A stretch of 60,650 nucleotides of DNA, filler included, from Rhabdomonas costata (lineage: Eukaryota), in assembly GCA_019059605.1 (NCBI GenBank). It is 17 parts of 17 records of this genome, joined end to end, with 100 filler letters (N's around TTAATTAATTAA, not from the genome) between each part and the next. Parts side by side here need not be neighbours in the genome. Positions count along the whole stretch, not along the records: positions 46,495 to 49,959 come from JAHMHO010000816.1; positions 50,060 to 53,523 come from JAHMHO010000817.1; 15 more parts are not named here. One strand, 5' to 3'. Below are positions 1-57,190 of the stretch, piece by piece. A program made the translations under genes and the position numbers. A model generated the notes under the pieces. The model searched no databases. It was given only the letters and a program-made list of their open reading frames with translations, and was not told where the DNA came from. The stretch's first letter is position 1; each line of letters starts with the position of its first letter.

Positions 1-1350
1 GGTGGGGGTGTGGTGTGGCTTCCTCTCGGTACGTCGCTGATGACAAGGGCGTCGAGTTAGGCCTTTCTTCTTCAGTCTTGCCACCAATCCAACGCATGGT
101 TCATACTAATTGAGATAACAACTCCAACTCAGCAGAAGCGAGAATTTGGCCGCTCTCAACGTCTATTTTTCCTCTTTTTTTATTCGTCCTCATGCCACCG
201 CCACAATCGCGCAAATCTGTTGTCGCCTAAAAAACCCCGATCATTACGACTTGTTGGTAGCTTCGAGGAAGTGGGTAGGATAGGAAAGTGTCCCGGGCGC
301 ACAGAGTTCCGTAAAAAGGTTCGCGTTTAGCGGCGATGGCATGCATGCATATTATTATGCTTTCAAACACCGGTATACCCAGGTTCTTTCCACCTTCCTT
401 TTCGCGTTGTTTTCCGCCATTGAACCGTGTGCAAAACCGCCGCGTATTTACCTTTGTTAACAATTCCAAAGGCTGGGTGGGCCGAAATGAAAATTCAAAC
501 ATTTATTTCCAGGTGCCCAGGGGCGCAGAAAGCATCGAACTGAGGCGCGTGAAGCGTAAAATGCCCGCCCAAAGTGGCCAGTTTTTAGATGGCTAAAAAT
601 ACCAATTTTCCTCGCCTACTCCTCCGGGTAGAGCCCTTTCAAAACAAATACCCGTTCACCCTTTTGGAATGTCCAAAAAGGGGACGTTATGTTCTGAAGG
701 TGCGCAATTGGTTGGCAATTTCATGGTTTCAACGTAGCATCTGGCTTCAACAGAGAAAAGTGGGCAACCGGATACTTGCCCACCCTACCATAATATTATG
801 TTGCCCGGAAGCATTTTTATGCAGGATGGCCTTTCCAGCGCGGAGGGAAAACACCCGGCCGACCTCCACTGGTTCCATTTAAAGTCTCCACCTGCGGGTT
901 TTACTCTGCACGTGGCCCGGGTTACGTCGTGGTAGGTGGTACTATGGCGCGTATTTTTGACTTCTCAACCGGGGGGTTTTTGGCTTAGGTTTCGAGGTTG
1001 GGTTTTATTTTCTTCTGAAAGCCATGCTTTCTTTTGAAGCTCCGAATATGTACTAAGTGGGTGGATCTTGTGTCCTTTGCCATTTTTTTTGCGTCAGTAT
1101 TTGTTGTTGTGCGTGTTCTACGGTTTCCGCCCACTTGGCGGTGATGAGTGGGGACTCACTCCGGTATTATGGTATGGATGCGTTGCGGTGGTAAGCTTGC
1201 GCGTGTATTGGGGTTCATGGTTTCCTTGTTAGGGTTTAAGTTTCGGCCTTCGGTTCGTGTCTTCGCCATGCTGGCTTCATGTAGCGGTGCCTGTCGTCGT
1301 TGTATTGGGCATTAGGTTCGGAATTCTGAATTCGGATTCGGCATTTGTGG

Positions 1351-1374
1351 TTCGGGGTTCGGGGTTCGGGGTTC
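1351..1374 (+). repeat. Short tandem heptamer (GGGGTTC)x3 inside a G/T-skewed region
   Basis: ttcggggttcggggttcggggttc read directly. Confidence 0.75.
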
Positions 1375-2640
1375 AAATTCGCTTCTCTGGACATGAAAGT
1401 AGGACTGGGGCTTGGGTTCGCTTCTATGAATATGATTTTGGAACCGTTTTTCCGGTGTCGAGTTAAGCTTTTTGGTTTATGGTTCGCGTTTCTTGCCCAC
1501 GGGGCAGTTGTGCTGTTGAGGTTCATGGTTCATGATTCTCGCATGGCTCGGGGTCCTGTTTAGGACTTATGTCTTCGGGATCGGCCTTTGGGTTGCTGGC
1601 TTCGGGTAGCGGTGCCCATTGTTGTGTGGTTGGGCCATCGCTTTCTGGGTTATGTCTCCAGCTTTGCGTTGTTATCCTGGTCTCCTTCGCTACGATGGTT
1701 CCTTTTTCTGTGCCAATTCGTGCTTCTGTGTTTTTGGTGTGGGTTTGTGTGGTGTCATTGTCCTTATTGGTCTTGGTCCCTCTGTTGCCTTGTTGTTCGG
1801 GGTTGGCGCGCAAGTGTAGGGTGCGGTGTCGGGTTCTGGTTTTGGCCACATGGCTTTCGTTGTGTTTCTGGGTTCCCCCGCTGTGGTTTATTCTTCATTT
1901 TTGGACGTACGTGCTTCTTGGTTGCTTGCGTTAGTTGTTGTAAGTTTCTTGGGTCTTAGGTTAGTGGTTTTGTGGTTTGGTCTTTGCGTTGGTGGTGCTG
2001 TGTAGGACTTGAGTGTCGGGTTGGGTGTCCGATTGTACTGAGTTTTGGGACGGATACTATGGGTGTGTTGGTGGAATCTTGCTCTGGTGGTGATTTTTTA
2101 TGGTTGGGTGCAAATGGTGTAGATGGTGCTTTGGGTATTTGCGGTGTATGGGTAGATTTTGGCGACGTACTGGGTTAGTGTTCCGCTTCGAATTCCGCAT
2201 TATTTGGGGATGTAATAGAGTGAGGGAGTGACACCGATGCCTAAGGGTAACGCTAAGGGTAAAGGTACGCATTCCACCACCACCGCTACATCATCCATGG
2301 AGTAGAGAGGAAGGGATGGCTGTAGATGCTGATGCTAAGGCTGATGCAAGACTGATGTCGATGCTGATGCTACGGTAGATGCCACTACACCATGCTAATC
2401 CTCTGTGTGGCTATCCTGCTTTAAGGAAGCAGCGTAAGAGATAGCGTAAGAGAGTGGAGGGGTGGATGAAGGGCCCGAACGAGAAGCGTGAGTGACCGAC
2501 CGACACGTTAAGCCATGTATCAACGATGGGGATACAATGCATAGAGTGTAAGCGTAAAGGCCCCGCAGGGACAGAGGGTGCGATTCAGTCTTCACATTCG
2601 ACACTCGCGATTCTCGTGTCTCCTGTTCCTCTTTCTGTCA

Positions 2641-3475: not shown

Positions 3476-3575
3476 NNNNNNNNNNNNNNNNNNNNNNNNN
3501 NNNNNNNNNNNNNNNNNNNTTAATTAATTAANNNNNNNNNNNNNNNNNNNNNNNNNNNNNNNNNNNNNNNNNNNN
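3476..3575. other. Artificial contig-joining linker N44-TTAATTAATTAA-N44 (first of 16)
   Basis: Identical 100-nt linkers, with stops in all six frames, start at 3476, 7049, 10626, 14197, 17794, 21358, 24927, 28496, 32064, 35641, 39209, 42827, 46395, 49960, 53524 and 57091. Contigs between them are all about 3.46-3.52 kb, so adjacency across a linker has no biological meaning. Confidence 0.98.
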
Positions 3576-5631
3576 CCCAATCCTGCACAGCAGGGATCCG
3601 CACCGCCAGCCTTATGTTCAACAAAGAAGTGCGGGTGTGCAGTTCAGCAGCTCACAACCGCACGTTGAATGCCAGCAGGTTGCTTCCATCATTTCGACGC
3701 ACAGCGGAAGGCCAATTAGCGTCCAGCGCCCAGAACTACACGGTACTTACCACACAGATATTGATCGTTCCATAGACCAACGGTGGAAACCACAGGGACC
3801 GCTGATGCACGGCTGTTGGAGACACCCAGCGCCCAAACCGCATGTGAGTGGTGGCGCGAAGCCATCAGTTCCAACACATACGCATGGGACTCCTGGGGAT
3901 GCACTGGGTGGAATGCACATGCCTGTCATCCTCTGAAGGGAAACTGTGCCTAAGGCCTAGGACGCCAGTACGTTTTTGCGGACCAGGGATGCTGCTGCCA
4001 CAGCAGTTCCAGCCGGGAAGCTGCGGAACCGTCTCCACCGGTTCGTCACCCACTTTTTTGGGCGGCTACCCGGGTGACTTGGCATTGGTCGTAAGGATCA
4101 TGCTAATGTTGGGATGCAGTTCGATTAGGCTGCCGCGGTGGCTTTTTGTGGGCTGCTGCTGGAGGCTCCGAGCAGCACATTTACCGAGAAGCCACTGGTT
4201 GCCCACGGCTGCGATCTCTGATGGCGCGACATTACTGCAATACCACCGAACGCGTCACTTGTGTAACACCGCTCCGCTGCGCCGCGATTATTCTTCCTCC
4301 GTGCTGGAAAGTGCGTAAAGTTCCAGCTTCTTGGCTTGCAACAAGAGCCATCTCAGGTCACAAGATTCCCACATGAACTGGCCATTATGGACAACAGTAT
4401 GACTAGAGCTGCTGCGTTGCGTGCACTCATAGCAGCCATGCCACGACACACAAAATACTAACTCCTCAGCCGCAACTCCCAGGCTCTGATACTGCCCCAC
4501 CAGTGGAAGCCCACGCCACCCGTAATACTGTAGCTGCGTGGTTACTGCTCATGCTGCTGTCATTATATGTCTCCACGCACAGGAAAGAAAACTGTCTAGT
4601 GCAGTTACCAAACCGGGACATGAAAATGAATCGATCACAGGCTATCTTTATAGTGGTGGGTACTCTTGAGTTTCCACAAAGGTTGCTTTAAACTATGTGG
4701 TGCGGTATGCACAAGGCGTTGCTTCAAATTTGTGTATCTGCACTAAACTGCAAAAGCTAGCAATTGAGAAAGTGAGCTCTTTTGTGTCAAACGTTGTCCC
4801 AAAGCGTTCATCGTGTGCCTGAGCAACCACAATTGCCATATTTGGCTTATACAAAGCAGATTATTTTGTAATCTGTGCTACATATAACAAAATTTGCCAT
4901 CATCAAAGTGAAACCACAACACATTCTACAGTTATAATTCAGCAGCTTACAGATTCACCAGTGAACACAAATAATTCTACTTGTAACCGCTCGTGTGTTC
5001 CTCAGATTAAATCTGTGGAAAATGGAAGAGCGTACATGTCAAATTACATCCACGCTGATAATTTTGGTGATTGTTTTACACCAAGCTCAGACTAGGCTGC
5101 AGCTGTATACACTAAATATAAATTATTGTAATTGACATTGCCACACGAGCTGCATAAATCTACTGAATAATCTACGGCTATCAATATTGGCAAACAACGT
5201 GGTTTCATGACACCTGGCCAATAATTTAAGTGCATCCGCTGTGAGATAGGAAGTTTTGGTATCGCTCTTTCAGCAATCTCTGACAATTTGGAACCAGATA
5301 TATGAGTTTCAAAGTTGCAAAGTCTGTATTTTTCCTCAACGCAAATGTGCAGCGAACTAGTCTTTAGCTGCAGACTCTAGCTCATCGAGCTTTTATTTTC
5401 CCTTTCTGGTACAAAACTGTATCAACTCAACAGTTCTTTTGTTTTACGGTAAGTTCGCATCCACGACTATTCCAGTTGACTTGTTGATTTACACATATAT
5501 AGTGTTTTGTATATAATATATATTAAAGGCGCTGAAGTTATTCCTTCTCAGTTACTTTCGCTTTTTTGCATCTAGCAAGCAAAACAAATTAGTTTCTCTT
5601 TTCTCCAATGCTGTTAGGTTAGGTTCACTTT

Positions 5632-5670
5632 GGTGTTAGGTGTTAGGTGTTAGGTGTTAGGTGTTAGGTT
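5632..5670 (+). repeat. Telomere-like heptamer array (GGTGTTA)x5
   Basis: Five exact copies, preceded by gttaggttaggttcact and ending in gttaggttcact. Confidence 0.9.
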
Positions 5671-6146
5671 CACTATCTAGAATGGTGCAAAATAACATGT
5701 GGAATTTATGAATCTCTGGAAGCAGTTTAAATCGGTGCATTGTAATGGCAAAAATGCTTGCATAAGTTAAGTGTGCCAACGTTTTTGTTATGCGTATATT
5801 TTATGACATTTGTTTATTCAATACAGTTATTAAAAACAGCCGGAAAATAATCGGTAACAATTTCTCCTTTCACTTTCGCCGCCGCCGGATCCCCAGGCGT
5901 CTTCAACATTCTCTTTGATAGCCCGTCTCATTCTTTCAACCTTTTTTGAACTGCTTGATAAAATTATTTGTCAATTTTGAGCGCAAAAGCGATCAATTCA
6001 AGCGAGGTGACCAGTTGTCAGAAACAAATAAAGTAGTAGTTCTCTTTGGCTTGCGTACAGAAACCGCTAGAATACCAATAATTAAGGACGCATTGTTACA
6101 TTCGAACGAACGACGGAACAAACTCCACTTATGCTGAGCCCTGACG

Positions 6147-6928
6147 ATGCCGCCGACTTGCACACCCACGTCGACTCCCACATCCACACCTTCGGCGACT
6201 CCCACGCCAACGCCCACACTAACATTGACCCCAACTTCATCTCCAACCCCTACGCCGACATCTACCCCAACATCGAGCCCGACTCCAACACCGACCTCCT
6301 CACCTACGTCGACTCCCACTAGCACTCCGACATCCACTCCAACACCCACACCGACGTCTACGCCAACTGCGTCACCAACTCCCACTCCAACCGCGACACA
6401 CACGCCCACACCGACACCGTCGCAGACTCCGACTTCCACCCCATCTTCGTCTCCCACGCCGACACCCACATCCTCTGCAACGCCCACACCTACGCCTACT
6501 AGTACGCCCTCGACGACACCCACAGCCACTCCAACTCCAACTCCAACCAGTTCTCCGACCTCCACCCCATCGCCTTCTCCCACATCGACTCCTACGTCTT
6601 CACCGACGCCAACTCCCACGCCGACCCCAACACCAACCCCCACAAAAACGCCAACCCTAACTCCATCTCGCTCGTCCAGTGATTCCCTGTCAACCACTTT
6701 TTCACTTAGCCCTTCATTCGCTCTCTCCTCTTCCCTTTCACACAGCTCAACCGTGTCTTCCTCTCTTACTCTAAGCTCCACGGTGTTTCCTTCGACGTCT
6801 CTGTCCATTAGCGAGACTGTCAGCACCAGCATGAGCTCCTCGATGACAAGCACCCCTACTTTGACATACACCCCTGTCCCGGATCAGGACCAGCCCGAGC
6901 CAGTACCCCTGCTTCTGATCCGCACAGG
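6147..6928 (+). CDS. Pro/Thr/Ser-rich mucin-like exon (partial gene)
   Basis: Open frame of PTPTPTS repeats with varied synonymous codons, so the repeat is kept at protein level. A Ser/Thr stalk follows. Likely GT donor (ACAG|gtgtgt) near 6929. True start is uncertain. Confidence 0.6.
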
Positions 6929-7984
6929 TGTGTTTTTGTCTTCCCCTCCCTCCAATCATACTCGAGGTTGATGTTTCCCTTCTGGTCCCTGTCACACATA
7001 ACTTTCCGCTGAAACCGGAGTGCTTCGATAAATAAGTGCCCAAAACCCNNNNNNNNNNNNNNNNNNNNNNNNNNNNNNNNNNNNNNNNNNNNTTAATTAA
7101 TTAANNNNNNNNNNNNNNNNNNNNNNNNNNNNNNNNNNNNNNNNNNNNGTGGTTGTTTATAGAAAAGCGCACAGACCGCATGAACTCTTGAAAAGGGGCA
7201 CGTATTTCTCCATCGCTGTCTTTTCAAGAGTTCATGCGGTCTGTGCGCTTTTCTACAAACGAACAACGTCGGCTCCCGTGAAGCTTAGGAGAGACCCCCT
7301 ATCAAAAGTGACGCACATTACTTCCAACTTTCCATTTGGACATCGTGAGCATGGAAAATTACCACTCTCTTCGTGGAAAAGTACCACTCTCTTCAAGGCA
7401 TTTTCTAAGCACAATCCACAGCACAGGGTGAAAAGAAAACACGTAGCACGCACGATAAAGACTCAACGTGCACTCATAGGGCAGCAGCAGCAGGTATCGA
7501 TGCGGCATGCAGAAACTCCGAATCAGCACGCACCCCAACTGTGAGCTTTTAGGTGTGTAACTAATTCTGGTAATGTTTTGCAACAAGTCTCAGGCTATTC
7601 TGGGCCCCTGCTTTATCAACGTTTACTCCATGCCTCCCCTCCCCCGTGTCTGGGGCGCCTAGCGTGGCGAGGTGCAAGAATGAGGGGGGGGGGGGGGAAT
7701 GGGTGAGGTTTTCCTTTGATAGTTGGGGCGGTTGGCCTGGAGCATTGCGAATTGCGAGACCGTTTCATGAGTTTTGAAAGAATTAGAAAATCATGGCCAA
7801 GCCCCTCTAGGCACTGTAGCTACTTTCCTGCTCTGGATGTGGGATTGGCTTGGGATTGTCAATTGCGCTTTCAGTAGACTTTGAAGGGGGACCGGGCCGC
7901 AGGACCACCAGTCCTTTGCAGGGCCCCATAGGAACGTGGGACACCGTCGTATTTCTTCGCGCACACCCCAACCTGACGCCTCAG

Positions 7985-32329: not shown

Positions 32330-35300
32330 TGAGTAGAGGGGTCTGATGGACTCCAGGTATGTGTGAAGTGTGACGAGGCCATGCCAGCTGCCACAAAGTG
32401 CAATGGATAGCAGAGATGCACCGAGCTGGAGAATGGTGGTGGCTCCAGCCCGGAGTAAGTCGTGCCACGTGAAGGCGGTGCGAATATACAAAAGGATGAT
32501 GGCGTATTGCAAGATGTTTTGAAAATGAGAAGTGAAGAAAGATGAAAGAGGAAAGAAAGAGTGCGCAGGGACGCAGGGCGTCTGACAGTTGTCACAAAAA
32601 TTCTGCCAGGTCATAGTTTGCAGGGTATATGCGGACATGGGTGTGAGAAAAGTCGGAAGGGCAGATGCGGCGGAGTTCTGAAAAACGTAGGAGATAAACA
32701 CATGATAGAAAGCGGCAAAATAAGGGCCGTTGCAGTGGTAGTGAAGGTGTGTCGTTAAGCCAAGATGGATCGAACCAAACGCGAGTGCTGCGGGGAGCGT
32801 GTGAGTGCAATGAAGAAAGTGCCTTGACCGCGCTTCAGTGGGAACGGGATGGACCAACCGGAATGTATCACAAGGTTAATATGTGCTCCCACTACGAAAC
32901 GCAAAGGCGTTTTGTGCTGGAGCATGGAGGAAATGCAAGGTGTAGAATGTATGCTTCAAATGCTTGAATGACAGCGGATGCAGTGGAGAGACGCGTGGTA
33001 TTGTTGATCCAATCGATGAGGTATTGCATTGGAGAGGCCGGGGCAATGGACAGAGGCACGAAGTGAAGAAAGGAAGACGGAGATGTCTCTGCGCTGACGA
33101 TGGAAAAGGATGAAAATGGGAGTTGTGCTTCAACGTGCTATAAAAGTGTGCTGAGCGTGGAGTGTAAGGAAGTGGTGAAAACAGAGGATAACGGAAATGG
33201 GTTAATTCTGGTGGCTTTTGGAGGTGTTGATTAGACTGCGCGCTTTTTGAAAGCATGGTTTGTGTTGGAGACGAAATAGAAACCACTCGTTCGTGTTCAG
33301 CAAACTCCATTTCATTCCCTTTTGCATTGCCGAAGAACGTGCGTTTTGACGCATTTACTGAGGAATTGGGTGGCAACGTTAGCCCTGTCGCACCCACGCC
33401 TGCAGCGCGTACTCTGTAGCTGCTGCTGCATGGCACTTTCGTTGCAGTCCTGCATGGCAGCATCCTCAGCAAAAACATGGCTGTTCCTCCCCGCTTTTCT
33501 TTCCTCTGAGTTTCCTTCCGGGTACGGTAGGCAGCCGCCGTGGCGTGTCCGTGACCTCAACCACAGGAACCAAGAGCTCTAATTACTTGTTATAATCATG
33601 GCAGACAACACCGATATTGCATTGCATAAATCAATGTTGCTCTAGCTCATCCGTGCATCATCGCTGATCAAACGTGAGTTGCATGGTATTCTGGAACTGA
33701 TCCTGTTCCGCGTCCTCCGTGATGCGCGCTATGGTTTTCTGGACATACAGGTGATGGAATGGCTAAGGTACCACGTTTGGAGCTCTACAATTCTATGGCA
33801 ATAACTAGCACAGGCGCAGCTGTGCCTAAGTCAAAGAATATGTTCTCCAAGTGGACGGTTGTAGCCGGTTGTTTTCACTTCGTTCCGCAATTCAAACCAC
33901 ACTCATAGATGTCNNNNNNNNNNNNNNNNNNNNNNNNNNNNNNNNGCTGTGCCTAAGTCAAAGAATATGTTCTCCAAGTGGACGGTTGTAGCCGGTTGTT
34001 TTCACTTCGTTCCGCAATTCAAACCATACTCATAGATGTCACCATGCCATCACCGAGGACTTTCAGAAACAGAATATTCGCTTTAAGAAAAGACATGAAA
34101 TCTCAAAGCCAATTCAGAAAAACACCAACAACGATTGCTCCCAAGCAACCCAAATGTGTGAGGATGTACCAACACTCAGAAGCGCCACTACGTCGTTCCA
34201 TATGCAATATCGTATCCAATTGGACGTGCTCGTCTGGTAAACGGCACACAGCCTTAGATGATTTTGGCGTTTGATGACTCCAAATAGAGATTGAAAATAA
34301 AAATACATAATTGTTGTTTCCACGACTAGACGGGGTATCAGTTGGTGAGGTACAGCACAGGGCTGTGGAGGAGAAATGCTACCGTTTCAGAGTGGTGAAA
34401 AATGTCGGAAAGAAGTATTTTATAAATAGTGAAAGGTCTGTATATTGACAGCCGCTAAGTAGGCGGTTGGATGAAGCGTCAGGTGTTTTTTGTTTTGGAA
34501 ATTTACGCTTTACGCTTGGCAAGGCAAGAGAATGCAGACACGCAAACATTATTCTTCCAGGACCGCACTGGAAACAACGACACAAGAAAGAACTTCGAGA
34601 TGGAAACAGGCAATGTGACAGAAGCTGGCTATGACATTGCACACATTGAATGGAAGCGTGAGTGTTGGATGAGCTCCGGACAATCTGAGCATGAGAAAAG
34701 ATTAGATGTATGCTAGAAGCCGCATGTGCTGCGTTATCTTTCATAAAAAACAAGAGCCAGGACAAGACTAAGGCGATACTGTTGTGTGGTTCGCCATATG
34801 CGACGGATGATGTGCAAGAAAGAGTGGCGACGGTAGGAGTTGCGACCACTGAGGGTCGCGAAGTATTCCGCAGTGGATTCAGTAATTAAGCACAGATTGC
34901 TGAACTTACGTAAGCATGCCTGCAAGCTGCCTGCAAACAGGGCATAAACTTCCGCCAGTTTTTGGCTACGTACCCAGCGTGTCAGCACAGAGGTAAGATG
35001 GCAACAGTGTTGATTGGATCCGAAAGAGGGGATAGTCGTGTGGAAAGATGAGAGGGTGAGGAGGGGAACGCGTATTGGCAGGACCCAAACAGAGCAAGAG
35101 ATACTGCAAGAGGGGTTTCCAAAGTGGTAAAGGAATGTAACGAGGCACTCGCGAATGTTGAGCGACAGAGAAAATGTGGGCTATGAAGATTCCAACTTCT
35201 GAAGCCGGCCAAAAGCCATTGGATGAAACCTAGTTAGCGTGCGAAGCCAGCGGAGTGGTGTGAGCTGGCGGAGAAAGATATCAGTGAGGGAAGAAAAGAT

Positions 35301-35742: not shown

Positions 35743-35869
35743 GTGGGAATGCATGAATATCAGGTACACATGTCCATTATATACCATTACAACGGCAACC
35801 CCGGTAGTACCTGAAGCCGTTGTAATGGTATATAATGGACATGTGTACCTGATATTCATGCATTCCCAC
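35743..35869. repeat. Perfect 54-bp inverted repeat (19-nt loop) at a contig start
   Basis: 35743-35796 is the exact reverse complement of 35816-35869. Confidence 0.92.
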
Positions 35870-42480: not shown

Positions 42481-42926
42481 AACGCAGACTTGAACAACCC
42501 CTCCGAAACAGAGTGATTCTCACTTTTATTGACTTGACCAACTGTCCTTCCGCTCCCCAAAAGTGCACACAGGGCATACCTTTATGAAGTACAGTAGCAA
42601 CGACTCATAGAAGGCCACGGAGGGTACCCGACACCCCACCAGGGCTACCGTCGGCCGCCTCAAGTAGTCCAGGCCTAGTGCACACAACCGGTCCACACAC
42701 ACGGACTTTCCGCCCACCCTTATTTTCGCGCTTATTTTTCCCCGTTTTTTTTTGCCCGGGCCACCATGAACCACCACCGGACATGACCCGCTCGGGAAGG
42801 GGGCTTCGAGTAAGCTAATGGAGCTTNNNNNNNNNNNNNNNNNNNNNNNNNNNNNNNNNNNNNNNNNNNNTTAATTAATTAANNNNNNNNNNNNNNNNNN
42901 NNNNNNNNNNNNNNNNNNNNNNNNNN

Positions 42927-42943
42927 GTGGTGGGTGTGTTTGG
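42927..42943 (+). other. Probable whole-genome-amplification primer remnant GTGGTGGGTGTGTTTGG
   Basis: The same 17-mer occurs in reverse complement at another contig end (17777-17793). Both are followed inward by G/T-only bases. Confidence 0.7.
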
Positions 42944-48771: not shown

Positions 48772-49691
48772 CCTAGAAATAAATGCAATCCTTAGCGGAG
48801 GGGGCTGCAGGGAAAATACTTTTGTGCCGTGCGATTTCGAGTGCTGCTGGTTATGTGCTCGCTCGGTGCAGGGCGAACATCCACATCGTGGGTCGGTTCG
48901 TCATGGTCGGAGACGGTTCTACATCTGTCAGTTTACACTTTGGTAATTCTCTTTGCGACATAAATGCACAACTCAGGGGTCAACTCTGGTCGGCAACACC
49001 AGTAACGCATTCATTTTTAGCAATGGGGAATAGAGTGGTATACCGTGCTACCCTAGGCGGCCCTATGCATGTAAGGAATTTTAAGCGTTGAAGTGCCTAC
49101 CCCCCCCAAAAAATAGTTACGACGGAGCTGAACCGGTCAGGACAGACCATCCGTGTGCCTACCCGCGGTGTAGCGGGCATGGACGTTTTGCCCATTCCGC
49201 ATGCCCTGGGGAAAAGAGGCGAAGAGATGGTACATGCGACCAGCGCACCTGCCCCGACACAATTCCCCCGGCTGATCAATGGCCGAACTTTCAAAACAAC
49301 GTTGCCTCCGCTAGAGCTGCCACACTAATGTACGCACTATCCCAGGGTGCTCAAATAGTCCAACAACCTAGTCCCTCCCGCAATATGGGTTCAAAAGGGT
49401 TCAGGCGTTTTTTTGGGTTGAAATCAACCTCCCTGAAAACAAAGGGCCCGAGGCTGACTTGCACAATGCACCAAAACGCGGCAGCGCACAAACTCACAGC
49501 AAGGCTTCAGCGTGCAACTGAAAACATAAGCGACAAAGCGGTGACGTCCAGGGCTAACTGTCCAAGGTGAAGCGAAGAAAAGAGATGCAATGCACCGCCG
49601 CAAAGCGAACAGTGATAAGAAGGGGAAAAGAAAGCGTTCTTCTCACCATTGTGGTGAGGGAAACGGAAAACGGAACACCCATGACAGACAT

Positions 49692-49740
49692 GGCAAGGCA
49701 AGGGAAGGCAAGACAAGGCAAGGCAAGGCAAGGCAAGACA
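49692..49740 (+). repeat. Imperfect (GGCAA)n pentanucleotide microsatellite
   Basis: ggcaaggcaagggaaggcaagacaaggcaaggcaaggcaaggcaagaca read directly. Confidence 0.88.
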
Positions 49741-50061
49741 TTGCAACGCTGGAACACGTCCGCCAGCTGGGGTGAGAGGAAAACTGAGACATCACCGTTT
49801 GCCCCCTAAAAGGAATGCGACTTCGAAGAGAAAAGCGACGATCGGGGCATGGGAAGGAAGGGTAGGGGCATGCTCGTGCGCGACGGATAGGTGCAGTTCA
49901 AGCAACTACACTGCTCACAAAGACCACCTGACGTGCGGGGGCGGCTGTCCCAAAACCCCNNNNNNNNNNNNNNNNNNNNNNNNNNNNNNNNNNNNNNNNN
50001 NNNTTAATTAATTAANNNNNNNNNNNNNNNNNNNNNNNNNNNNNNNNNNNNNNNNNNNNAG

Positions 50062-51504
50062 GCAAAGGAGGTTTATGATTACGCAATGCTTTTATCCTCA
50101 GAGCTAAAGGGTAGGCACTTTCAGTTCACGGAAACTCAGGCCAAGGCGATACTCGACATGCGCCTCGCCAGGCTTACAGGTCTGGAGAAAACGAGGGTGG
50201 AGGACGAGCTTGCGGAGATTGCGAGCAACATCAGGGAATATAGCGCGATACTAGCTTCCAGTACCAAGCTTGTACAGGTTTTAAAAGAAGAGCTATTAGA
50301 GTTAAAAGAACAATTCCCTAGGCAGAGGCTAACGAAAATCGAGCTGATCGAGGAGATGGAAGTAGAAGATGAAGAACTTATACCAGAAGAAGAAATGGTG
50401 GTCACCTTCACTGCTACAGGATATGTCAAAAGAGTTCCGCTGAGTGTCTATAAGGCACAAAGGAGAGGGGGAAAAGGTAGGTTAGCCCTTCAGATGCACG
50501 CGGAGGATGCTCTGTCTGAAATGGTGATAGCGAGCACGCACGCTGATGTCCTGTTTTTCTCTGATCTAGGGCAAGTTTATAGACTGAAGCTATACAAACT
50601 TCCACTCGCCAGCGTGCAGGCCCGAGGTAAGCCTGTGGTGAACCTTATTGCAATTAAACAGAGCGAAAAGATAAGCAAGGTTCTAACGATTCCTCGCGGA
50701 GAGAAGCTAGAAGCGCTAGACGTGGTATTCAGCACCCAGCTTGGTCAAGTGCGAAGGAATAAGTTGTCTGATTTTGGTTACATACCATCTAATGGCAAGA
50801 TCGCCATAAGGCTCGAGGAGGTGGATAGGCTTATATCAGTAGACTTTTGCGGAGAGGGCTCAGACCTCATGATTGGAACCAGGGGTGGAAGATGTATAAG
50901 GTTCCCTGTAGATGATTTGAGGATCTTTAAGAGTAGAAGCTCTGACGGCGTGCGTGGGATAAAGCTTCCTGATGTTGATAAGGTTGTGGCAAGTATAGTC
51001 CTCAGGGGAAGCAGATATTCTCAGGCAGAACGTGATGCTTATCTCTCTATCCCGCTTGAGTATCGTGACAAGTTGCGAGATGAACAGCCAAGCCTTGAGC
51101 TTTTACGGTTACTGCAGAAGAGGAACATCTCCAAGCTGGGAGCCGAGGCTATGGAAACGATGGCGAGGGAGGAGATGTTCATACTATCGGTCACGGAAAA
51201 CGGATACGGTAAATGCAGTTCTTCATACGAGTACAGGACCTCTGGTAGAGGTGGGGTCGGTGTTTTAAACTTTGCTGTGTCTAAAAGGGTAGGAAGCGTT
51301 ATAGGCATGGTCGCGATTTCAGGCCGCAGGGGTGAGGAAGTTATGTTGATCACGAATTTCGGAAGGACTGTTAGATGTAGACTAGGGGAGATACGTGTCA
51401 CAGGGCGGAACACGAGGGGGGTCATCTTGCTGAGGCCTTCCGAAGGTGAAAAAATAGTGTCTGTGGCCTTGATTCGGGAGGAGTTTGTGGATGACCAGAG
51501 GTGA
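50062..51504 (+). CDS. gyrA: Bacterial DNA gyrase subunit A, C-terminal part (5' truncated at the contig edge)
   Basis: Intronless. QAKAILDMRLARLTGLE, GyrA-box QRRGGKG and beta-pinwheel repeats (GRNTRGVILL). The insertion ERDAYL...MAREEMFILSVTENGYGK is of the alphaproteobacterial type. Confidence 0.97.
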   Translation, partial: AKEVYDYAMLLSSELKGRHFQFTETQAKAILDMRLARLTGLEKTRVEDELAEIASNIREYSAILASSTKLVQVLKEELLELKEQFPRQRLTKIELIEEMEVEDEELIPEEEMVVTFTATGYVKRVPLSVYKAQRRGGKGRLALQMHAEDALSEMVIASTHADVLFFSDLGQVYRLKLYKLPLASVQARGKPVVNLIAIKQSEKISKVLTIPRGEKLEALDVVFSTQLGQVRRNKLSDFGYIPSNGKIAIRLEEVDRLISVDFCGEGSDLMIGTRGGRCIRFPVDDLRIFKSRSSDGVRGIKLPDVDKVVASIVLRGSRYSQAERDAYLSIPLEYRDKLRDEQPSLELLRLLQKRNISKLGAEAMETMAREEMFILSVTENGYGKCSSSYEYRTSGRGGVGVLNFAVSKRVGSVIGMVAISGRRGEEVMLITNFGRTVRCRLGEIRVTGRNTRGVILLRPSEGEKIVSVALIREEFVDDQR

Positions 51505-51651
51505 GTTTTGGTTTGATGGCGGCCATTAAGTTAGTGTGCGTGGCGCCTTTCTACTTCAGGTGCTATATTGTTGCGCTGTGTGATGTAGTGGTCATCTCAT
51601 AGTCTCTGGAGCTTAGTGGGAGTAGTTTAGGAAACTTGATGTTAATTGTTT

Positions 51652-51837
51652 ATGATAGTTGTGAATTATTTGGGAAATGTAGATGCTGCCATACGTACCT
51701 TGAAAAGGAGAATGCAGCAGGAGCTTCTCTTCAGCAAAATGCGCGAAGTTAGGGCATATGAGAGTCCATCGGAACGCGCCAGGAGAAAGCAGGCCGAAGC
51801 TTTCAAAAAGCGCGGAAGATTCAGGAGGGGGAATTAG
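51652..51837 (+). CDS. rpsU: Bacterial 30S ribosomal protein S21
   Basis: MIVVNYLGNVDAAIRTLKRRMQQELLFSKMREVRAYESPSERARRKQAEA matches the bS21 pattern (LKRKMQRE...YEKPS..R.RK..EA). Confidence 0.92.
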   Translation: MIVVNYLGNVDAAIRTLKRRMQQELLFSKMREVRAYESPSERARRKQAEAFKKRGRFRRGN

Positions 51838-52086
51838 TGGTTGTATCCTCCTATAACAGCGTGCCATATGTACCAGGTGTTGCCTATTTCTCCTGGGTAA
51901 TGTTATAGATAGCTATTTTCTGGTTAGTTTTCTGTTGAACTTGCGAATTTTTCGGTCTTTAGTTTCAACTGAGGATAAAACTTTGATAGAAACCATTAAA
52001 ATAGTAAAGTGTACACTCAAGGCTACCTTAAGCATTTGGGTAGAAATAAAAAAATCAATGTTGACAACTACGGGGGAGGGGAAGAC

Positions 52087-53100
52087 CTTATCGCCAGACT
52101 TTCCCCTCTTCTTGGAGAAGGTCCTGGCCTCCTCGTTGTAATAGATGTCCCCCCACAGCCGCCGGGCGAATGCAGAGTGGTCGAGCCCAGGGAAGTACCC
52201 CGCGTACAGCTTCGCAAAGGACTGCACCGTGAAACTCCACCCGTGCCGCGACGACGCGAACGCCACGTTGCCCAGCTCCGGGGAAAGCTTCTGCGGAACC
52301 CCTGCGAAAGTGGGCAAAAGAGCACAACAAGGAATGTACTGCCCTTCGATGAAAGGCTGCCTTCAGAGTGGCTTCGAATAACGCATGCGCTTTGGCAAGA
52401 GCACGTTGTTTTGGAAAGGAATATCGGAACATTGCCCAATTGCGCAGCAATCCGTTTTTTCAGGGAAGGGCACGCCCACTCAGCCCCACCTTTGAGGTGG
52501 GGGCACTCGGCGATGACGTTGTTGACCTCCTCGATAGTGTGCCGAAGCTTGATGTATGCATCATCCGGGGGAAGCTTGAGCTCCAGAATCAGCCGATCCA
52601 CTTTGTTCACCACCAGGCACAAGGGTAGCTGAATCCCACCCCCCGACAAACACAACCGTTTCATGTCTCCTAATGCAACCCAACTGCAAGCACAGCAGCA
52701 TTACTCCACTGTAGTATGGATGCCCACTACGGCATCTGCCAACCTTTTGGATTCAACTCCACAACTCCACGCACCCAATGCGGCTGCATGAACAATACCA
52801 AAGAAACATATTAAGATGGGCGGACGACCCCTTTCATATTGCGTGCAAAAAATGACCCCTGAAAAAGCCAGATCACGGCACGGGGACCACCATAAACCTG
52901 AAAATGCAGCCACGGGGATTGCTTCGCTGGCTGCAGCTCAAAAGGAAAACGATGCCGCGTGCAACGGACCTGCTCGGCGATCGCGTGCTTGATGAGCTTC
53001 TCCGTGTTTACCATCACTCCCTCAATCGCGTCGACGACGATGCAGACCCCGTCGCACAGCCGCACCGCGGCGCTGACCTCGTCGACAAAGTTCACATGCC
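52087..53100 (-). CDS. EFTUD2: U5 snRNP GTPase EFTUD2/Snu114, internal part (exons 53100-52970, 52628-52490, 52301-52087)
   Basis: [85 protein letters not shown]...[15 protein letters not shown] and LILELKLPP...LRH point to Snu114 rather than EF-2. Introns are phase-consistent. Confidence 0.93.
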
Positions 53101-54215
53101 CTGCAGTGTATCAACGTCATATTGGCACTCCCACAAGCGATACCAGGAAAATCTTGGGCAAAGTATCGGGTATATCCTCACCACACAGCAATTACATCGG
53201 AAAAATAGCGCCCCCGCTATATAAACAAATGCATCAAGTCTCAAACCACTTGATTAAGTCCACCCATTCCCGAAAAATTCAGCAGACACATTACGAAACG
53301 TTAAAAAAAACCCTTTGTTTAAAAAGTTGAGAAAAAGTTGGACCCAATTCTGTGAAACCCAGGCTTCACTTAGCATCCCACCCAAAAACGCGTCCCTTAA
53401 ATCAGCAACGTTGGCATTCTCGAGCACTTCTACAAAAACTCCCCGCTTACCGCATGTTCCAAAGCCGTCACAGGGTCAGAAAGTGATCCAGTCAACAACC
53501 CTCAGCAAATGAGACACCCCCCCNNNNNNNNNNNNNNNNNNNNNNNNNNNNNNNNNNNNNNNNNNNNTTAATTAATTAANNNNNNNNNNNNNNNNNNNNN
53601 NNNNNNNNNNNNNNNNNNNNNNNCACCACTGTGGCCGGATGCCCCGTGGCACCCGTTGCTAAAGGATCTCACGGTTAGAAGTGTGGAGTGGAAAGGAAGG
53701 CTATATTTGGATAAATCTGGGAAGTTGAGACCCAGACCCAAGTGGGCTACACTGTTCACTTACGTGGTTGGCAAGGAGGTACAGGGTTTGTGACCTTGTT
53801 GCTAATTCTTTTCTGTTGTTACTCTCGCAGGCGCAAGAGAATACTTTTGACGAAGAGCTTCCCCGTGCACGTGGCATGGTTATACCGGGTACCTGGTTAT
53901 ATCCTCCCCAACCCATCCCTGCGCATCACAAGCCCAGCTAAAGAGGAAGAAGGCTAAAAACAGGATAAAAGGGGGTTCTCCCCCCCCCCTCATTCTCAAG
54001 GTAGCTGCAAAAAAAAAAGCAAGCGCCTTCGTTCTTTCCTTCCTTTTCCCCACCAAGCTAAACTACTTCTTTCTTCCGGCCTCGTTGGACCAAAGCTGCA
54101 GCTTAGCTCTCGAGCTTAGTACCAGCGAGTCGAGAGCTCGGTGGTGTGCTTCAGCCTTTTCAAGCTCTCCGCTACTTTTCAGTGTTTCCTTTGAGGGGGA
54201 TAGCGTGTCTCCAGT

Positions 54216-56810
54216 ATGGCCACTCCCAGCCTCAACAACGAGAGCTATATGTCCAAGCTAAAGACGTTTATGCTACACCACACACAGCCTGCGTTCGATA
54301 AAGTGGTGACGTGGCTTGAATCTTTAGGACAAGCAGGGGAGTTAAAGAGGAGACAGGAGATTCAGCAACAACAGCAGGCGCTTGTGCGCGTGATGGGAAA
54401 TTGTGAGAAGTGGCTAAGGGCGGCGACGCAGATGCTCACGTTCCTTGCAGGTGCAGCAGAAAGAAGGACCCCAGATATATGTGCGTTGATGGGTTTGGTC
54501 GAAGCAGGTTGCAAGGACATGGAGGCTGCGAAGAGAGCATTAGAGGTGTGGAACGAACTAGCAGTGGAGACGAAGGATATAAACCCGTGGACAGCTATAG
54601 CTCCAGTATTCCAGGAGCACGCAGTAGCCACGTACGTGCTGCAGGTGGTGGAAGAGCTGAATAACCCAGGTTCGCCCTTGATACATGAGAGGGAGCGGAT
54701 AGAGTCTCTGCTAAATGAAGTGTTGCGGTGGAAGTTCCAGGGTCAACCACATCAACAGTACCTTCCGGAGACCAGGCGATGGATAAAGACACCACCCCCA
54801 CAACCTAAGCCAAAAGCCCCAGTTTCAGAGTTGTCTAAAATCCTTGCAGACTTCAAACAAGCACGAGAAGAGCCCACCTCGAGGAAAGATGGGGGCGCAG
54901 TCCACAGTGAAGCTAAACCCAGAGGTCAATCAGAAAGCTCAATGGTTGCGGTTGGTGAACATGTCCCGAGGGTGAAGCCTCAACCCGTTGATGTGGGAGC
55001 TAAATCAGCGGTTATACCCACAGCTGGAAGGCCGCAGCGAACACAGTCAGTTCCCAGAGAAGGTGATAGGGTCAACCGAGTGCAGATAAAAGTACCACCG
55101 TCATATACGGTTGCGACGAGGGCAGAGGCCACAGACGTAAGAACTTCCGTAGAAGGGTCTTGGGGTCCAGATCCCTCACTGATGCAAGTGGATCCCAATA
55201 CGCCGGCGTGGGGAGCCGCTCCGAGACAGTCAACAGCAGGTCGTAGAGGCCAGGCAGGAGCTATAGCTGCACAGCCAGAGGTTACACTTGCGAGAAGGGT
55301 TGGGATATATGGAGATTTGGAACCAAGTGCAACACAGTTGGTACATGACGGATGTCCCTTGCCGGAGGGAGCGTTACCCAGGATAAAGGACAGATACTAC
55401 TGGGAAGCGATGGGAGTTGGGATTCCCGCGGATATATTGTCAGGGACTGGAACTATATATCCCGACAGGTATCACCCTCGTCCGGAAGTAGAATACGAAG
55501 TAGAGACCAGGTTCATAGGGCTAAAGAGACTGAGAACCCACCCACATCGGGCGATGGACAGTCAGATAAGTATGTTCTTCAACCACCAGAGTGGATATAA
55601 GGAGTCGGAGTACCCCGCAGAGATAAAGCCGCACACGTTTCTGGCCACCGTGTTGGAGCTTCGAACGTTCTATGAGTCGTTCCAGAAAGAGTTTAAACAA
55701 TACCAAATGAGAGCAGAGTTCGGCAGGCTGATAACACTGATAAAGGTGATGGCACCTGAAACCATGATATACTACTCTGCCAAAGTCCCAGCTTACGAGG
55801 TGGTGTCGAGATTTGTGGGGTACCCCGAGCAAAATGGAGATATATTATCGCGTTTTGAGTGCAGTCGTGAGGATAAAATTGAGTTGTTGTACGCACTGAC
55901 ACCTCGGTTAACGGTGACGGGGGATCCGGGAAAAGGGCCGGATGCGTATGCCTTCTGCAGAGAAGCCATACTTGTGATCCCACCGTCCTGGATAAAAAAA
56001 GCGGAAAGTTTCCAGGGAGAGGGAATTTTAGCCCTGGAACGTTATGAAGAGCGTGAACCGATAAATTCGCCCCTGTACCAGTGGCTCTTCAGGTTTGCAC
56101 TGACGGTGGATATTGTGAGGAACAAGTTGAAGTTTGTCAAAGAGAATGAAGAGGATGAGCTTGTGGAGATGGCCATATACGCGTTCAAGCTGTTGAGGGT
56201 CAGAGGTTCGTATGACGACCCAAAAATTCACGAAGATCCAGTGGCATTGGCCAGATATATGCGGGAGTACGTGCTTGAATCGTGGATTCAGTCGGGGTTT
56301 TCGTCTAAGGAAGTGGTCTTGAAAGTCCATGGGAGGCTGGACGAGATATACCAGGTGGACCCGGACGAAAACGTTGCGGATATACGGACAACCATACCAT
56401 ACCCTTTTGCTGACGGAGTGGTGTATCCCGATGGATATAATGACAGGTCCACGCTACGACCAAGGAAACGTGTGTTTGTATCGAGGATGGTCACGGATAA
56501 AGAGTGGATAGAGAGCGCACCACGTGGATCGTATCTTTTCCACGGGGATGACTCGACCAGGGACGACAAGGAAGACAGAGGTGACCCCTCACCCCCACAA
56601 GAAGATGGAGATGAAGAGGGTCCGGACACAGCCGGAACGACTGACAAGGGGGACGACACCGGGCCGCCAGGTGGTATGATGGATATGTCAGGAGGGGATG
56701 ATGAACCAACCCAAGGTGAAGGTCTAGATCCGGAAAAAGAAGGACCGGGGGGACCATCAGAAAAATTTATCGATCTGACAGCGGTAGTGTCCCAGTACGA
56801 CCCTCTTTGA
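54216..56810 (+). CDS. 864-aa intronless orphan ORF, probably from a mobile element or virus (gag/ORF1-like)
   Basis: 2.6-kb uninterrupted frame in an otherwise intron-dense genome, with a purine-rich coding strand. Helical N-terminus, Pro-rich linker, globular core and acidic tail. No catalytic motif recognised. Confidence 0.75.
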   Translation: MATPSLNNESYMSKLKTFMLHHTQPAFDKVVTWLESLGQAGELKRRQEIQQQQQALVRVMGNCEKWLRAATQMLTFLAGAAERRTPDICALMGLVEAGCKDMEAAKRALEVWNELAVETKDINPWTAIAPVFQEHAVATYVLQVVEELNNPGSPLIHERERIESLLNEVLRWKFQGQPHQQYLPETRRWIKTPPPQPKPKAPVSELSKILADFKQAREEPTSRKDGGAVHSEAKPRGQSESSMVAVGEHVPRVKPQPVDVGAKSAVIPTAGRPQRTQSVPREGDRVNRVQIKVPPSYTVATRAEATDVRTSVEGSWGPDPSLMQVDPNTPAWGAAPRQSTAGRRGQAGAIAAQPEVTLARRVGIYGDLEPSATQLVHDGCPLPEGALPRIKDRYYWEAMGVGIPADILSGTGTIYPDRYHPRPEVEYEVETRFIGLKRLRTHPHRAMDSQISMFFNHQSGYKESEYPAEIKPHTFLATVLELRTFYESFQKEFKQYQMRAEFGRLITLIKVMAPETMIYYSAKVPAYEVVSRFVGYPEQNGDILSRFECSREDKIELLYALTPRLTVTGDPGKGPDAYAFCREAILVIPPSWIKKAESFQGEGILALERYEEREPINSPLYQWLFRFALTVDIVRNKLKFVKENEEDELVEMAIYAFKLLRVRGSYDDPKIHEDPVALARYMREYVLESWIQSGFSSKEVVLKVHGRLDEIYQVDPDENVADIRTTIPYPFADGVVYPDGYNDRSTLRPRKRVFVSRMVTDKEWIESAPRGSYLFHGDDSTRDDKEDRGDPSPPQEDGDEEGPDTAGTTDKGDDTGPPGGMMDMSGGDDEPTQGEGLDPEKEGPGGPSEKFIDLTAVVSQYDPL

Positions 56811-57190
56811 GACCATTGGGAAGATGACCCAGAAGGAATAGATGAGGACTCGAGACGGGGCAGAGCGTTAAAGAGAGGACGGTCGGTGCAGTCTTCCATA
56901 TCCGCACCCCCTGCGCAAGTTAAAAGGGTGGAAAGAGGCCCTATAAAGCCAGACTTTCCGTTTCGGATCCCAACCGCCCGGATAAATGTGATGAGAACCG
57001 CTGCTGAGAGAGGAGCGGAGGTGAGCGAGTTGGAAGATTATACTGATGGAAAAAGTGGTCGGAAGATAGATTTCAAACCCACGGATAAATNNNNNNNNNN
57101 NNNNNNNNNNNNNNNNNNNNNNNNNNNNNNNNNNTTAATTAATTAANNNNNNNNNNNNNNNNNNNNNNNNNNNNNNNNNNNNNNNNNNNN

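What the first reader, a model, noticed from the sequence alone, without database searches (positions are those of the whole stretch)
50060..53100. Rickettsiales-like bacterial DNA joined without a gap to an intron of the host Snu114 gene
Seen: within one contig, about 2 kb of intronless bacterial sequence (intact gyrA C-terminus and rpsU) meets three spliced exons of eukaryotic EFTUD2. The switch falls near 52070, only about 15 nt past the exon donor (AAG|gtcttcccctcccccg). Inference: either a very recent endosymbiont-to-nucleus insertion inside an intron of an essential spliceosomal gene, or a chimera from amplification or assembly. The undecayed bacterial ORFs and signs of amplified DNA elsewhere make a chimera at least as likely.
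Basis: partly seen in the sequence, partly recalled or inferred. Interest (0 to 1): 0.75.

Follow-up and report, generated by a model that had tools for sequence, protein, structure and literature searches.

The report
Bacterium–host join, probably an amplification chimera
One short contig joins intact genes of an undescribed Rickettsia-like bacterium to an intron of a splicing gene of the euglenid Rhabdomonas costata, but the DNA was clearly amplified before sequencing, so the join is more likely a laboratory or assembly chimera than a true gene transfer.

Summary
The window is 17 unplaced contigs of about 3.5 kb joined by N/TTAATTAATTAA linkers. The contig 50060-53523 carries, on the + strand, the last 480 codons of gyrA and a complete rpsU. 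On the - strand it carries three GT-AG exons of Snu114/EFTUD2. These exons match a Rhabdomonas costata transcript-derived protein exactly.

GyrA falls in a Rickettsiaceae-related clade with Ca. Sneabacter namystus; its nearest relatives are 58-63% identical. Composition switches near 52071/52072, 15 nt past the exon donor.

The window shows amplification directly. The whole-genome-amplification primer sits at 4 contig ends, 22 of 34 ends start with G/T-only runs, and 3 of 17 contigs end in fold-back repeats. The bacterial genes are undecayed.

No independent copy of either locus was found.

Verdict: an artefactual chimera is about 0.6 likely and a true recent endosymbiont-to-nucleus insertion about 0.33. 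Either way, the contig shows an unreported, unusually GC-rich Rickettsiales lineage associated with this euglenid.

The parts
49960..50059 (.). Artificial linker (N44-TTAATTAATTAA-N44) between unplaced contigs
   Evidence: 16 identical 100-nt linkers split the window into 17 contigs of 3460-3518 nt
50062..51504 (+). 3' part of bacterial gyrA: 480 codons plus stop, open at the contig start
   Evidence: Pfam DNA_gyraseA_C 7e-50. 58% identity to P0001 and 52% to Ca. Sneabacter namystus GyrA. Ends where its relatives end.
51505..51651 (+). gyrA-rpsU spacer, GC 0.435
   Evidence: The same gene order occurs in L001 with a 105-nt spacer.
51652..51837 (+). Complete bacterial rpsU (ribosomal protein S21, 61 codons from the ATG; a TTG at 51646 is also possible)
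   Evidence: Pfam Ribosomal_S21 1.1e-11. 65.5% identity over 58 residues to the rpsU that follows gyrA in L001.
51838..52071 (+). AT-rich stretch (GC 0.35) after rpsU, read as bacterial intergenic DNA; no gene recognised
   Evidence: GC and k-mer profile. Six-frame translation shows nothing recognisable. No terminator-like site.
52060..52086 (.). Switch zone. Best estimate of the join is 52071|52072 (...CAACTAC|GGGGGAGGGG...). No primer or pure G/T-only decamer at the join.
52072..52086 (-). First 15 nt of the host intron after exon C (gtcttcccctccccc)
   Evidence: The donor is confirmed because P0121 continues with the next exon.
52087..52301 (-). Snu114/EFTUD2 exon C (215 nt; ..GVPQKL...KSGDK)
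52302..52489 (-). Host intron, 188 nt, GT-AG, GC 0.51
52490..52628 (-). Snu114/EFTUD2 exon B (139 nt; [13 protein letters not shown]...ECPHLK)
52629..52969 (-). Host intron, 341 nt, GT-AG, GC 0.51
52970..53100 (-). Snu114/EFTUD2 exon A (131 nt; GHVNFVDEV...HAIAEQ)
   Evidence: Pfam GTP_EFTU 3.5e-10
53101..53523 (-). Part of the upstream host intron (>423 nt). The contig ends in ACACCCCCCC, which read inward is a G/T-only decamer like the primer-derived ends of other contigs.

Best explanation
The join near 52071/52072 is an artefact. DNA of an intracellular Rickettsiales bacterium and nuclear DNA of Rhabdomonas costata were in the same whole-genome-amplification reaction. Inferred mechanism: a nascent strand copied from one template switched to, or primed on, the other, possibly at the G5AG4/C-run that sits exactly at the switch. 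That one hybrid molecule was then amplified. With very uneven coverage, the assembler ran a contig through it instead of through the true continuations. Both halves are real DNA. One is a living or very recently living bacterium's gyrA-rpsU locus. The other is the host's Snu114 gene. Only their adjacency is false.
For: Shown:
- The amplification primer TGTGTTGGGTGTGTTTGG matches the window 5 times at <=3 mismatches, against 0.05 expected. Its design, primer plus K10NN, is quoted in PMC10781638 (passage). The 4 best matches all lie at contig ends and point inward.
- 22 of 34 contig ends begin with a G/T-only run of >=7 nt, mostly exactly 10 nt. Only 1.9% of 20,000 random interior positions do. 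This includes the host-side end of this contig.
- 3 of 17 contigs end in perfect or near-perfect fold-back inverted repeats, at 35743-35869, 7150-7265 and 21266-21355. Artefactual joins are therefore built into this assembly.
- gyrA (480 codons) and rpsU (61 codons) have no stop or frameshift.
- gyrA-rpsU order matches L001, a 53%-identical Rickettsiales MAG and the closest genome-collection locus.
- The bacterial part has no introns, while the host gene has exons of 131-215 nt.
- Coding GC is 0.48, against 0.35-0.44 in the bacterial spacers and 0.56-0.63 in the host exons. The bacterial piece looks like a working bacterial genome, not resident nuclear DNA.

Context:
- The one published draft genome of this species that I found was made from sorted cells amplified with a commercial single-cell WGA kit. 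One sample was 16S-PCR positive for bacteria. It was assembled with SPAdes, with N50 1194 nt (PMC8219788, passages and sections 16-17). I did not establish that the window comes from that work.
- A preprint on symbiont-bearing diplonemids reports no recent endosymbiotic gene transfer (abstract only).
Against: - There is no primer sequence and no pure G/T-only decamer at the join. GGGGGAGGGG contains an A. It is therefore not a simple end-to-end fusion of two amplicons.
- The join lies in an intron and leaves the GT donor intact, a place where a real insertion would be tolerated.
- In the 17 contigs, bacterial DNA occurs only on this junction contig. Of the 20 other long ORFs tested, none gave a bacterial family. 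The only hits were RRM_1 and a sub-threshold AIG1. If free bacterial DNA were plentiful, pure bacterial contigs should outnumber chimeric ones. This favours a real insertion by a small factor.
- The species paper says its cleaner, microdissected sample gave no 16S product. That does not fit an abundant endosymbiont in every cell.
- No uninterrupted copy of the intron or of the bacterial locus was found. The collections searched may simply not hold this organism.
Confidence: 0.6

Rival explanations
1. A real, very recent insertion of at least 2 kb of endosymbiont DNA into the intron that follows exon C of the host Snu114 gene, 15 nt downstream of the donor. This would be a nuclear insert like those known from Wolbachia hosts. 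The intron is still removed normally, so the insert is neutral and has not yet decayed.
For: - The contig is gap-free across the join, with no primer remnant there.
- The join is intronic and spares the donor. The transcript-derived protein P0121 shows normal splicing to the next exon.
- Rickettsiales of this clade live inside cells. Ca. Sneabacter namystus is an endosymbiont of a diplonemid (10.1101/719211, passages). Euglenids are known hosts of Rickettsiales (PMC8061765, passages; locus L052). The opportunity for transfer therefore exists.
- The only bacterial DNA among the 17 contigs is on the junction contig.
- The cleaner sample in the species paper was 16S-PCR negative. That would fit bacterial DNA that is nuclear.
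Against: - The DNA was amplified, and the same set of contigs carries clear artefacts.
- The bacterial genes show no decay at all over 541 codons and no shift towards host features.
- This intron would be over 2 kb, while the two complete introns of the gene are 188 and 341 nt.
- There is no independent support of any kind for the join.
Confidence: 0.33
2. A purely computational misjoin. No hybrid molecule ever existed, and the assembler connected two graph paths through short shared or low-complexity sequence.
For: - Fold-back contig ends show graph-level artefacts. So does a 32-N gap flanked by a 95-nt duplicate (33819-33913 and 33946-34040).
- A G-run lies at the join.
Against: - The shared sequence would have to be as long as the assembler's k-mer. 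Nothing repeated is seen at the join.
- The 23-mer across the join is unique in the window.
- No repeat family touches 52040-52100.
Confidence: 0.04
3. Transfer in the opposite direction: a piece of the host Snu114 gene, with its introns, was taken up into the bacterial chromosome downstream of rpsU.
For: Only that the two sequences are contiguous.
Against: - The host part is identical to the host transcript over three exons, has host-like composition, and ends in an amplification-type contig end.
- To my recollection, uptake of over 1.4 kb of intron-bearing eukaryotic DNA by a reduced endosymbiont has hardly any precedent.
Confidence: 0.02

Closest known systems
Nuclear insertions of endosymbiont DNA (Wolbachia-to-host transfers in insects and nematodes; recalled from general knowledge, no paper read here)
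   Same: Rickettsiales donor. A raw, intron-less, multi-gene piece of bacterial chromosome is contiguous with host nuclear sequence, lying in non-coding host DNA.
   Different: Those cases were confirmed by junction PCR, FISH or long reads on unamplified DNA. Here the only support is one contig from amplified DNA. The host is a euglenid, for which I found no such report.
Bacterial DNA sifted from the Trichoplax adhaerens genome project (PMC3641634; abstract in search listing only)
   Same: Rickettsiales-like sequences turn up in a eukaryotic genome project. The same three-way question arises: contamination, symbiont or lateral transfer. They point to an unrecognised endosymbiont.
   Different: That study surveyed a whole assembly. 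Here only 60 kb could be seen, and only one bacterial fragment.
Chimeric molecules and primer-derived ends from whole-genome amplification with the universal primer plus K10NN (primer quoted in PMC10781638, passage; chimera formation recalled, not read)
   Same: Primer remnants and G/T-only decamers at contig ends, fold-back ends, very fragmented assembly.
   Different: The join itself carries no primer remnant. If it is a chimera, it arose by template switching inside the inserts, which is inferred and not shown.
Candidatus Sneabacter namystus, a Rickettsiaceae endosymbiont of the diplonemid Namystynia karyoxenos (10.1101/719211, passages; taxonomy)
   Same: Closest named relative of the GyrA fragment (52% identity). 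It falls in the same SH-aLRT-100 clade. Its host is also a euglenozoan.
   Different: Its chromosome GC is 34.9%, while gyrA here is 48% GC with GC3 at 52%. Identity of only 52% means a different, undescribed lineage. gyrA-rpsU adjacency was seen only in the MAG locus L001 (1 of 80 loci).

Membership tests
DNA gyrase subunit A (bacterial GyrA), C-terminal half | Repeated GyrA C-terminal beta-propeller blades after the end of the topoisomerase IV/gyrase A core domain | tested here: met
   Pfam DNA_gyraseA_C 7e-50 in 5 stretches. The core domain's last 58 positions match at 30.5 bits, against a cut-off of 31. The fragment aligns end to end with the C-terminal 480 residues of 890-912-aa GyrA proteins.
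DNA gyrase subunit A (bacterial GyrA), C-terminal half | GyrA-box motif (Q-R/K-R-G-G-R/K-G; motif recalled, not from a call) | tested here: met
   QRRGGKG is present in the translation. R135, G136, G137 and G139 are invariant in the 12-sequence alignment.
Bacterial ribosomal protein S21 (rpsU) | Match to the S21 profile above the curated cut-off, in a small basic protein | tested here: met
   Ribosomal_S21 at 44.7 bits, cut-off 27. 65.5% identical to the rpsU downstream of gyrA in L001.
Rickettsiales (Rickettsiaceae-related, Sneabacter-like clade) | Phylogenetic placement of a marker protein inside the group | tested here: met
   Quick IQ-TREE tree of 36 GyrA C-terminal halves. The window falls in a 10-row clade (SH-aLRT 100) with Ca. 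Sneabacter namystus and the Rickettsiales MAG L001, sister to a Rickettsiaceae MAG. Limits: one gene only; the careful search did not finish; I chose 26 of the 80 loci and 9 proteins for the tree.
Snu114 / EFTUD2 (U5 snRNP GTPase) | Closest to Snu114 rather than to eEF2, and part of the host's own expressed gene | tested here: met
   Exon C's best PDB matches are SNU114/EFTUD2 (3.5e-19 to 1e-15), ahead of eEF2 (1e-12 and weaker). The exons are identical to the R. costata protein P0121, whose neighbours in the search are about 1000-aa Snu114 proteins.
Endosymbiont-to-nucleus DNA insertion | The join is present in unamplified DNA, or in many independent reads at host-like coverage | not testable with these tools
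No assembly is held.
Endosymbiont-to-nucleus DNA insertion | Signs of residence in the nucleus: decay, introns, or host-like composition of the bacterial part | tested here: not met
   ORFs are intact and have no introns. GC is 0.48 in coding and 0.35-0.44 in spacers, against 0.51 in host introns and 0.56-0.63 in host exons. This does not exclude a very recent insertion.
Amplification / assembly chimera | The template DNA was amplified, and other artefactual joins occur in the same assembly | tested here: met
   Primer at 4 contig ends. G/T-only runs at 22 of 34 ends, against 1.9% of interior positions. Fold-back ends in 3 of 17 contigs.
Amplification / assembly chimera | Separate, uninterrupted copies of both parental loci exist | tested here: inconclusive
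   None was found in the window, in two contig collections or in the protein collections. These may not contain the organism at all.

The most novel reading that the evidence does not exclude
The join is real. A euglenid has been caught with a fresh, still undecayed piece (at least 2 kb) of the chromosome of an undescribed, unusually GC-rich Sneabacter-clade Rickettsiales. It lies inside an intron of its essential Snu114 gene, 15 nt from the splice donor, and the intron is still spliced out. This would be the first endosymbiont-to-nucleus DNA transfer documented in Euglenida. It would also show that Rhabdomonas costata hosts, or very recently hosted, such a bacterium.
Probability: 0.33. Interest if true: 0.65.

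Novelty: not a real feature. Interest (0 to 1): 0.33.

Why it matters
**If the join is an artefact.** It is a clean, well-documented example of how amplified single-cell-type assemblies can mimic lateral gene transfer. The primer-derived contig ends give a simple way to flag such assemblies.

**If the join is real.** It would be a snapshot of endosymbiont DNA entering a euglenid nucleus. A preprint on the sister group, the diplonemids, reports no recent transfer (abstract).

**Independent of the join.** The contig shows that Rickettsiales DNA with intact housekeeping genes travels with Rhabdomonas costata.
- The species paper does not contain the word Rickettsia at all (0 hits).
- Only 2 papers in the library hold both 'Rhabdomonas' and 'Rickettsiales'. 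One I read in passages and it does not link the two. The other is a classification paper that I did not open.
- The bacterium's closest relatives are only 52-63% identical in GyrA. Its gyrA has GC3 of 52%, against 19-28% in its closest relatives.

A dedicated look for this symbiont would be worthwhile.

Tried and rejected

**Search for the bacterium's own genome.**
- Single-protein scans of genome contigs found pattern matches in 106 stretches, none confirmed.
- The same scan of metagenome contigs found 194 stretches, none confirmed.
- Exact look-ups of 4 proteins (three forms of the bacterial proteins and the unrelated 864-aa ORF) found none in the collection.
- Homologue searches found nothing closer than 58% among longer proteins and 63% over 75% of the query among near-length proteins.

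**Search for another version of exon C with a different read-through.** There were 21 hits and none was more than 61% identical. P0121's other exons are not in the window.

**Primer signature at the join.** An A/C-rich octamer followed by a G/T-rich decamer does occur at 52072. The pattern occurs at 52 of 57,690 interior positions, and I chose it after seeing the sequence. The decamer is not purely G/T. I therefore give it no weight.

**Other checks around the join.**
- The fifth primer-like match, inside a contig at 44848-44865 (3 mismatches), has no G/T run after it and looks like chance.
- No tRNA, no Rfam family and no terminator-like site after rpsU were found.
- No convergent gene is recognisable in 51838-52086, although L001 has one 184 nt after rpsU.
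- No repeat or microhomology is visible at the join.
- The k-mer log-odds profile was trained on only 1.8 kb of bacterial sequence and is noisy. It agrees with the switch but does not sharpen it.

**Earlier findings.** The index held nothing for this genome, this sequence or these words.

**Amelioration.** I considered whether the high GC of gyrA is amelioration in the nucleus and rejected it. The shift reaches the protein sequence while the frame stays intact, which needs long evolution under selection, that is, in a living lineage.

**Supplements.** The species paper's supplementary tables were not seen. They may list contigs or contaminant taxa that bear on this.
Full report
**What the window is.** The 60,650 bases are not one piece of chromosome. 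Sixteen identical 100-nt linkers (44 N, TTAATTAATTAA, 44 N) divide the window into 17 contigs of 3460-3518 nt, in order of size. The finding's start, 50060, is the first base of one such contig, which ends at 53523. That contig has no internal gap.

**The bacterial half.** The frame 50062-51504 (+) is open for 480 codons and runs off the contig start.
- Pfam finds five GyrA C-terminal blades (E 7e-50) after the tail of the gyrase/topo IV core (30.5 bits, cut-off 31).
- The frame ends where full-length GyrA proteins end.
- After a 147-nt spacer comes a complete rpsU at 51652-51837 (S21, E 1.1e-11).
- No stop or frameshift interrupts either gene.

Among 7,985 longer homologues, the best are unnamed proteins at 58% and 57% identity. 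The best named one is Candidatus Sneabacter namystus at 52%. Tisiphia and Rickettsia follow at 46-49%. Near-length proteins gave at best 63% identity over 75% of the query.

I built a quick maximum-likelihood tree of 36 C-terminal halves, from 26 of the 80 fetched loci, 9 proteins and the window. The window falls in a 10-row clade with SH-aLRT 100. That clade holds Sneabacter and the Rickettsiales MAG locus L001, and it lies next to a Rickettsiaceae MAG. The careful search did not finish.

A tblastn search with the window's rpsU, at E<=1e-3, found the gene in only 1 of the 80 loci, L001. There it lies 105 nt after gyrA, as it does here. In L001 a convergent gene follows 184 nt after rpsU. In the window, the 234 nt after rpsU (51838-52071, GC 0.35) hold nothing recognisable.

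The window's gyrA is 48% GC with GC3 at 52%. The five closest loci compared (L001, L002, L003, L006 and L012) are 35-37% GC with GC3 at 22-28%. Sneabacter's chromosome is 34.9% GC (10.1101/719211, passage). This shift reaches the protein and leaves the frame intact. It must therefore have happened in a living lineage, so it says nothing about residence in the host nucleus.

**The host half.** On the - strand, exon A (53100-52970) matches GTP_EFTU at 3.5e-10. Exon C (52301-52087) matches solved SNU114/EFTUD2 chains ahead of eEF2.

A search of 1.84 billion representative proteins with exon C gave one near-identical hit, P0121. Its source label is EukProt Rhabdomonas costata. P0121 is identical to all three exons, and after ...KSGDK it continues with EDSRSFVHFVLSPLYK. 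This gives four conclusions:
- The host is this osmotrophic euglenid.
- AAG|GT at 52087/52086 is a genuine donor.
- The gene is expressed with this intron removed.

**The join.** GC is 0.29-0.40 in 51840-52060 and 0.55-0.66 from 52060 on. Host introns are 0.51. The best estimate is a switch at 52071|52072 (...CAACTAC|GGGGGAGGGG...), which leaves 15 nt of intron. The exact base cannot be fixed without a parental sequence. Nothing is repeated at the join.

**Is the DNA amplified?** Yes, and this can be read in the window itself.
- The universal whole-genome-amplification primer matches five times at up to 3 mismatches, against 0.05 expected. Its design is quoted in PMC10781638 as the 18-mer followed by ten G/T positions and NN (passage).
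- The four best matches all sit at contig ends and point inward: 14180-14197, 17777-17794, 24909-24926 and 42926-42943.
- 22 of 34 contig ends start with a G/T-only run of at least 7 nt, most often exactly 10. Only 1.9% of 20,000 random interior positions do. The host-side end of the target contig is one of them. The bacterial-side end is not.
- Three of the 17 contigs end in fold-back inverted repeats with arms of 41-54 nt that are 93-100% complementary and 8-24 nt apart.
- One contig has a 32-N gap flanked by a 95-nt duplicate.

These are artefactual joins that made it into contigs.

For context, I found one published draft genome of this species (PMC8219788). I read passages and sections 5, 7, 17 and 28 of it. 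It was made from sorted cells amplified with a commercial single-cell WGA kit. One of its two samples was 16S-PCR positive for bacteria and the cleaner one was negative. It was assembled with SPAdes to an N50 of 1194 nt. The paper does not mention Rickettsia (0 hits). I did not establish that the window comes from that work, and its supplements were not available.

**Weighing the two readings.**

For a chimera:
- Amplification is proven, and artefactual joins occur in the same contig set.
- The bacterial genes are completely undecayed, with bacterial organisation and composition.
- The intron would be over 2 kb, next to introns of 188 and 341 nt.
- There is no independent support for the join.

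For a real insertion:
- There is no primer remnant or pure G/T decamer at the join, so it is not a simple end-to-end fusion of amplicons.
- The location is intronic and spares the donor.
- The only bacterial DNA among the 17 contigs is on this junction contig. Twenty other long ORFs gave no bacterial family.
- The species paper's cleaner sample was 16S-negative.

The G5AG4 run at the switch is the kind of sequence at which polymerases stall and strands re-anneal. It is equally compatible with microhomology-mediated end joining in vivo.

I put an artefact at about 0.6 for a physical hybrid molecule, plus 0.04 for a purely computational misjoin. A real recent insertion is at about 0.33 and transfer in the opposite direction at 0.02.

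**What could not be done.** No near-identical copy of the bacterial locus and no alternative continuation of the intron was found:
- Two contig collections held no close relative of the bacterial GyrA. A wider scan with an alignment found only distant relatives, the best at 53% identity.
- Exact look-ups of four proteins found none.
- Homologue searches found none.

These blanks may only mean that the organism is not in those collections.

**Comparison with what is known.** If real, this would be a new case of a known kind, endosymbiont DNA inserted in the host nucleus as in Wolbachia hosts (recalled). I found no such case in print for a euglenid. The searches for 'Rhabdomonas' with 'Rickettsiales' and for euglenid, Rickettsiales, endosymbiont and lateral gene transfer turned up none. 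A preprint on diplonemids reports no recent transfer from their symbionts (abstract).

Rickettsiales are known from other euglenids: Petalomonas and Eutreptiella (PMC8061765, passages) and Peranema (locus L052 title).

Whatever the join is, the contig shows an undescribed Rickettsiales lineage travelling with Rhabdomonas costata. That is the more solid and still modestly interesting result.

Noticed in passing
window 1-60650 (linkers at 3476-3575, 7049-7148, ... 57091-57190): The window is an artificial string of 17 unplaced contigs (3460-3518 nt, sorted by size) joined by N44-TTAATTAATTAA-N44 linkers. Neighbouring contigs say nothing about each other.
   Followed up: yes
window 14180-14196, 17777-17793, 24909-24926, 42927-42943, and 22 of 34 contig ends: Untrimmed remnants of the whole-genome-amplification primer and its G/T-only decamer sit at contig ends. 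The first 10-30 nt of many contigs are therefore primer-derived, not genomic.
   Followed up: yes
window 35743-35869, 7150-7265, 21266-21355: There are fold-back inverted repeats (arms 41-54 nt, 93-100% complementary, loops 8-24 nt) within 2 nt of three contig ends. These are amplification or assembler artefacts.
   Followed up: partly
window 33819-34040: A 32-N scaffold gap (33914-33945) is flanked by a 95-nt direct duplicate at 99% identity, that is, an unclosed overlap.
   Followed up: no
window 54216-56810 (+): An uninterrupted 864-codon ORF lies on a host-like contig (GC 0.51). It has no Pfam family, no usable protein-atlas hit and no exact match in the protein collection. It is odd for a host whose genes are cut into short exons. 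It may be a mobile-element or viral gene.
   Followed up: partly
window 6141-6971: About 0.8 kb of degenerate 12-nt repeats, A/C-rich on the + strand (33 copies). It reads as PT/ST-rich protein on one strand and GV-rich on the other, with no Pfam hit. It is either a real low-complexity gene or related to the G/T-only primers.
   Followed up: partly
window 1000-2100: About 1 kb is strongly G/T-rich on the + strand (AT skew -0.59, GC skew +0.26), with short GGTTCGG-type repeats. The cause is unknown.
   Followed up: no
window 50062-51837: The bacterial genes are far more GC-rich (gyrA 48%, GC3 52%) than the closest loci compared (35-37%, GC3 22-28%; L001, L002, L003, L006, L012). The GyrA tip branch is long (0.78, against 0.2 for its sister rows). 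This is an unusually GC-rich member of an AT-rich clade.
   Followed up: partly
window 5620-5670 and 49690-49740: Short tandem repeats are present: (GGTGTTA)n and (CAAGG)n-like runs.
   Followed up: no
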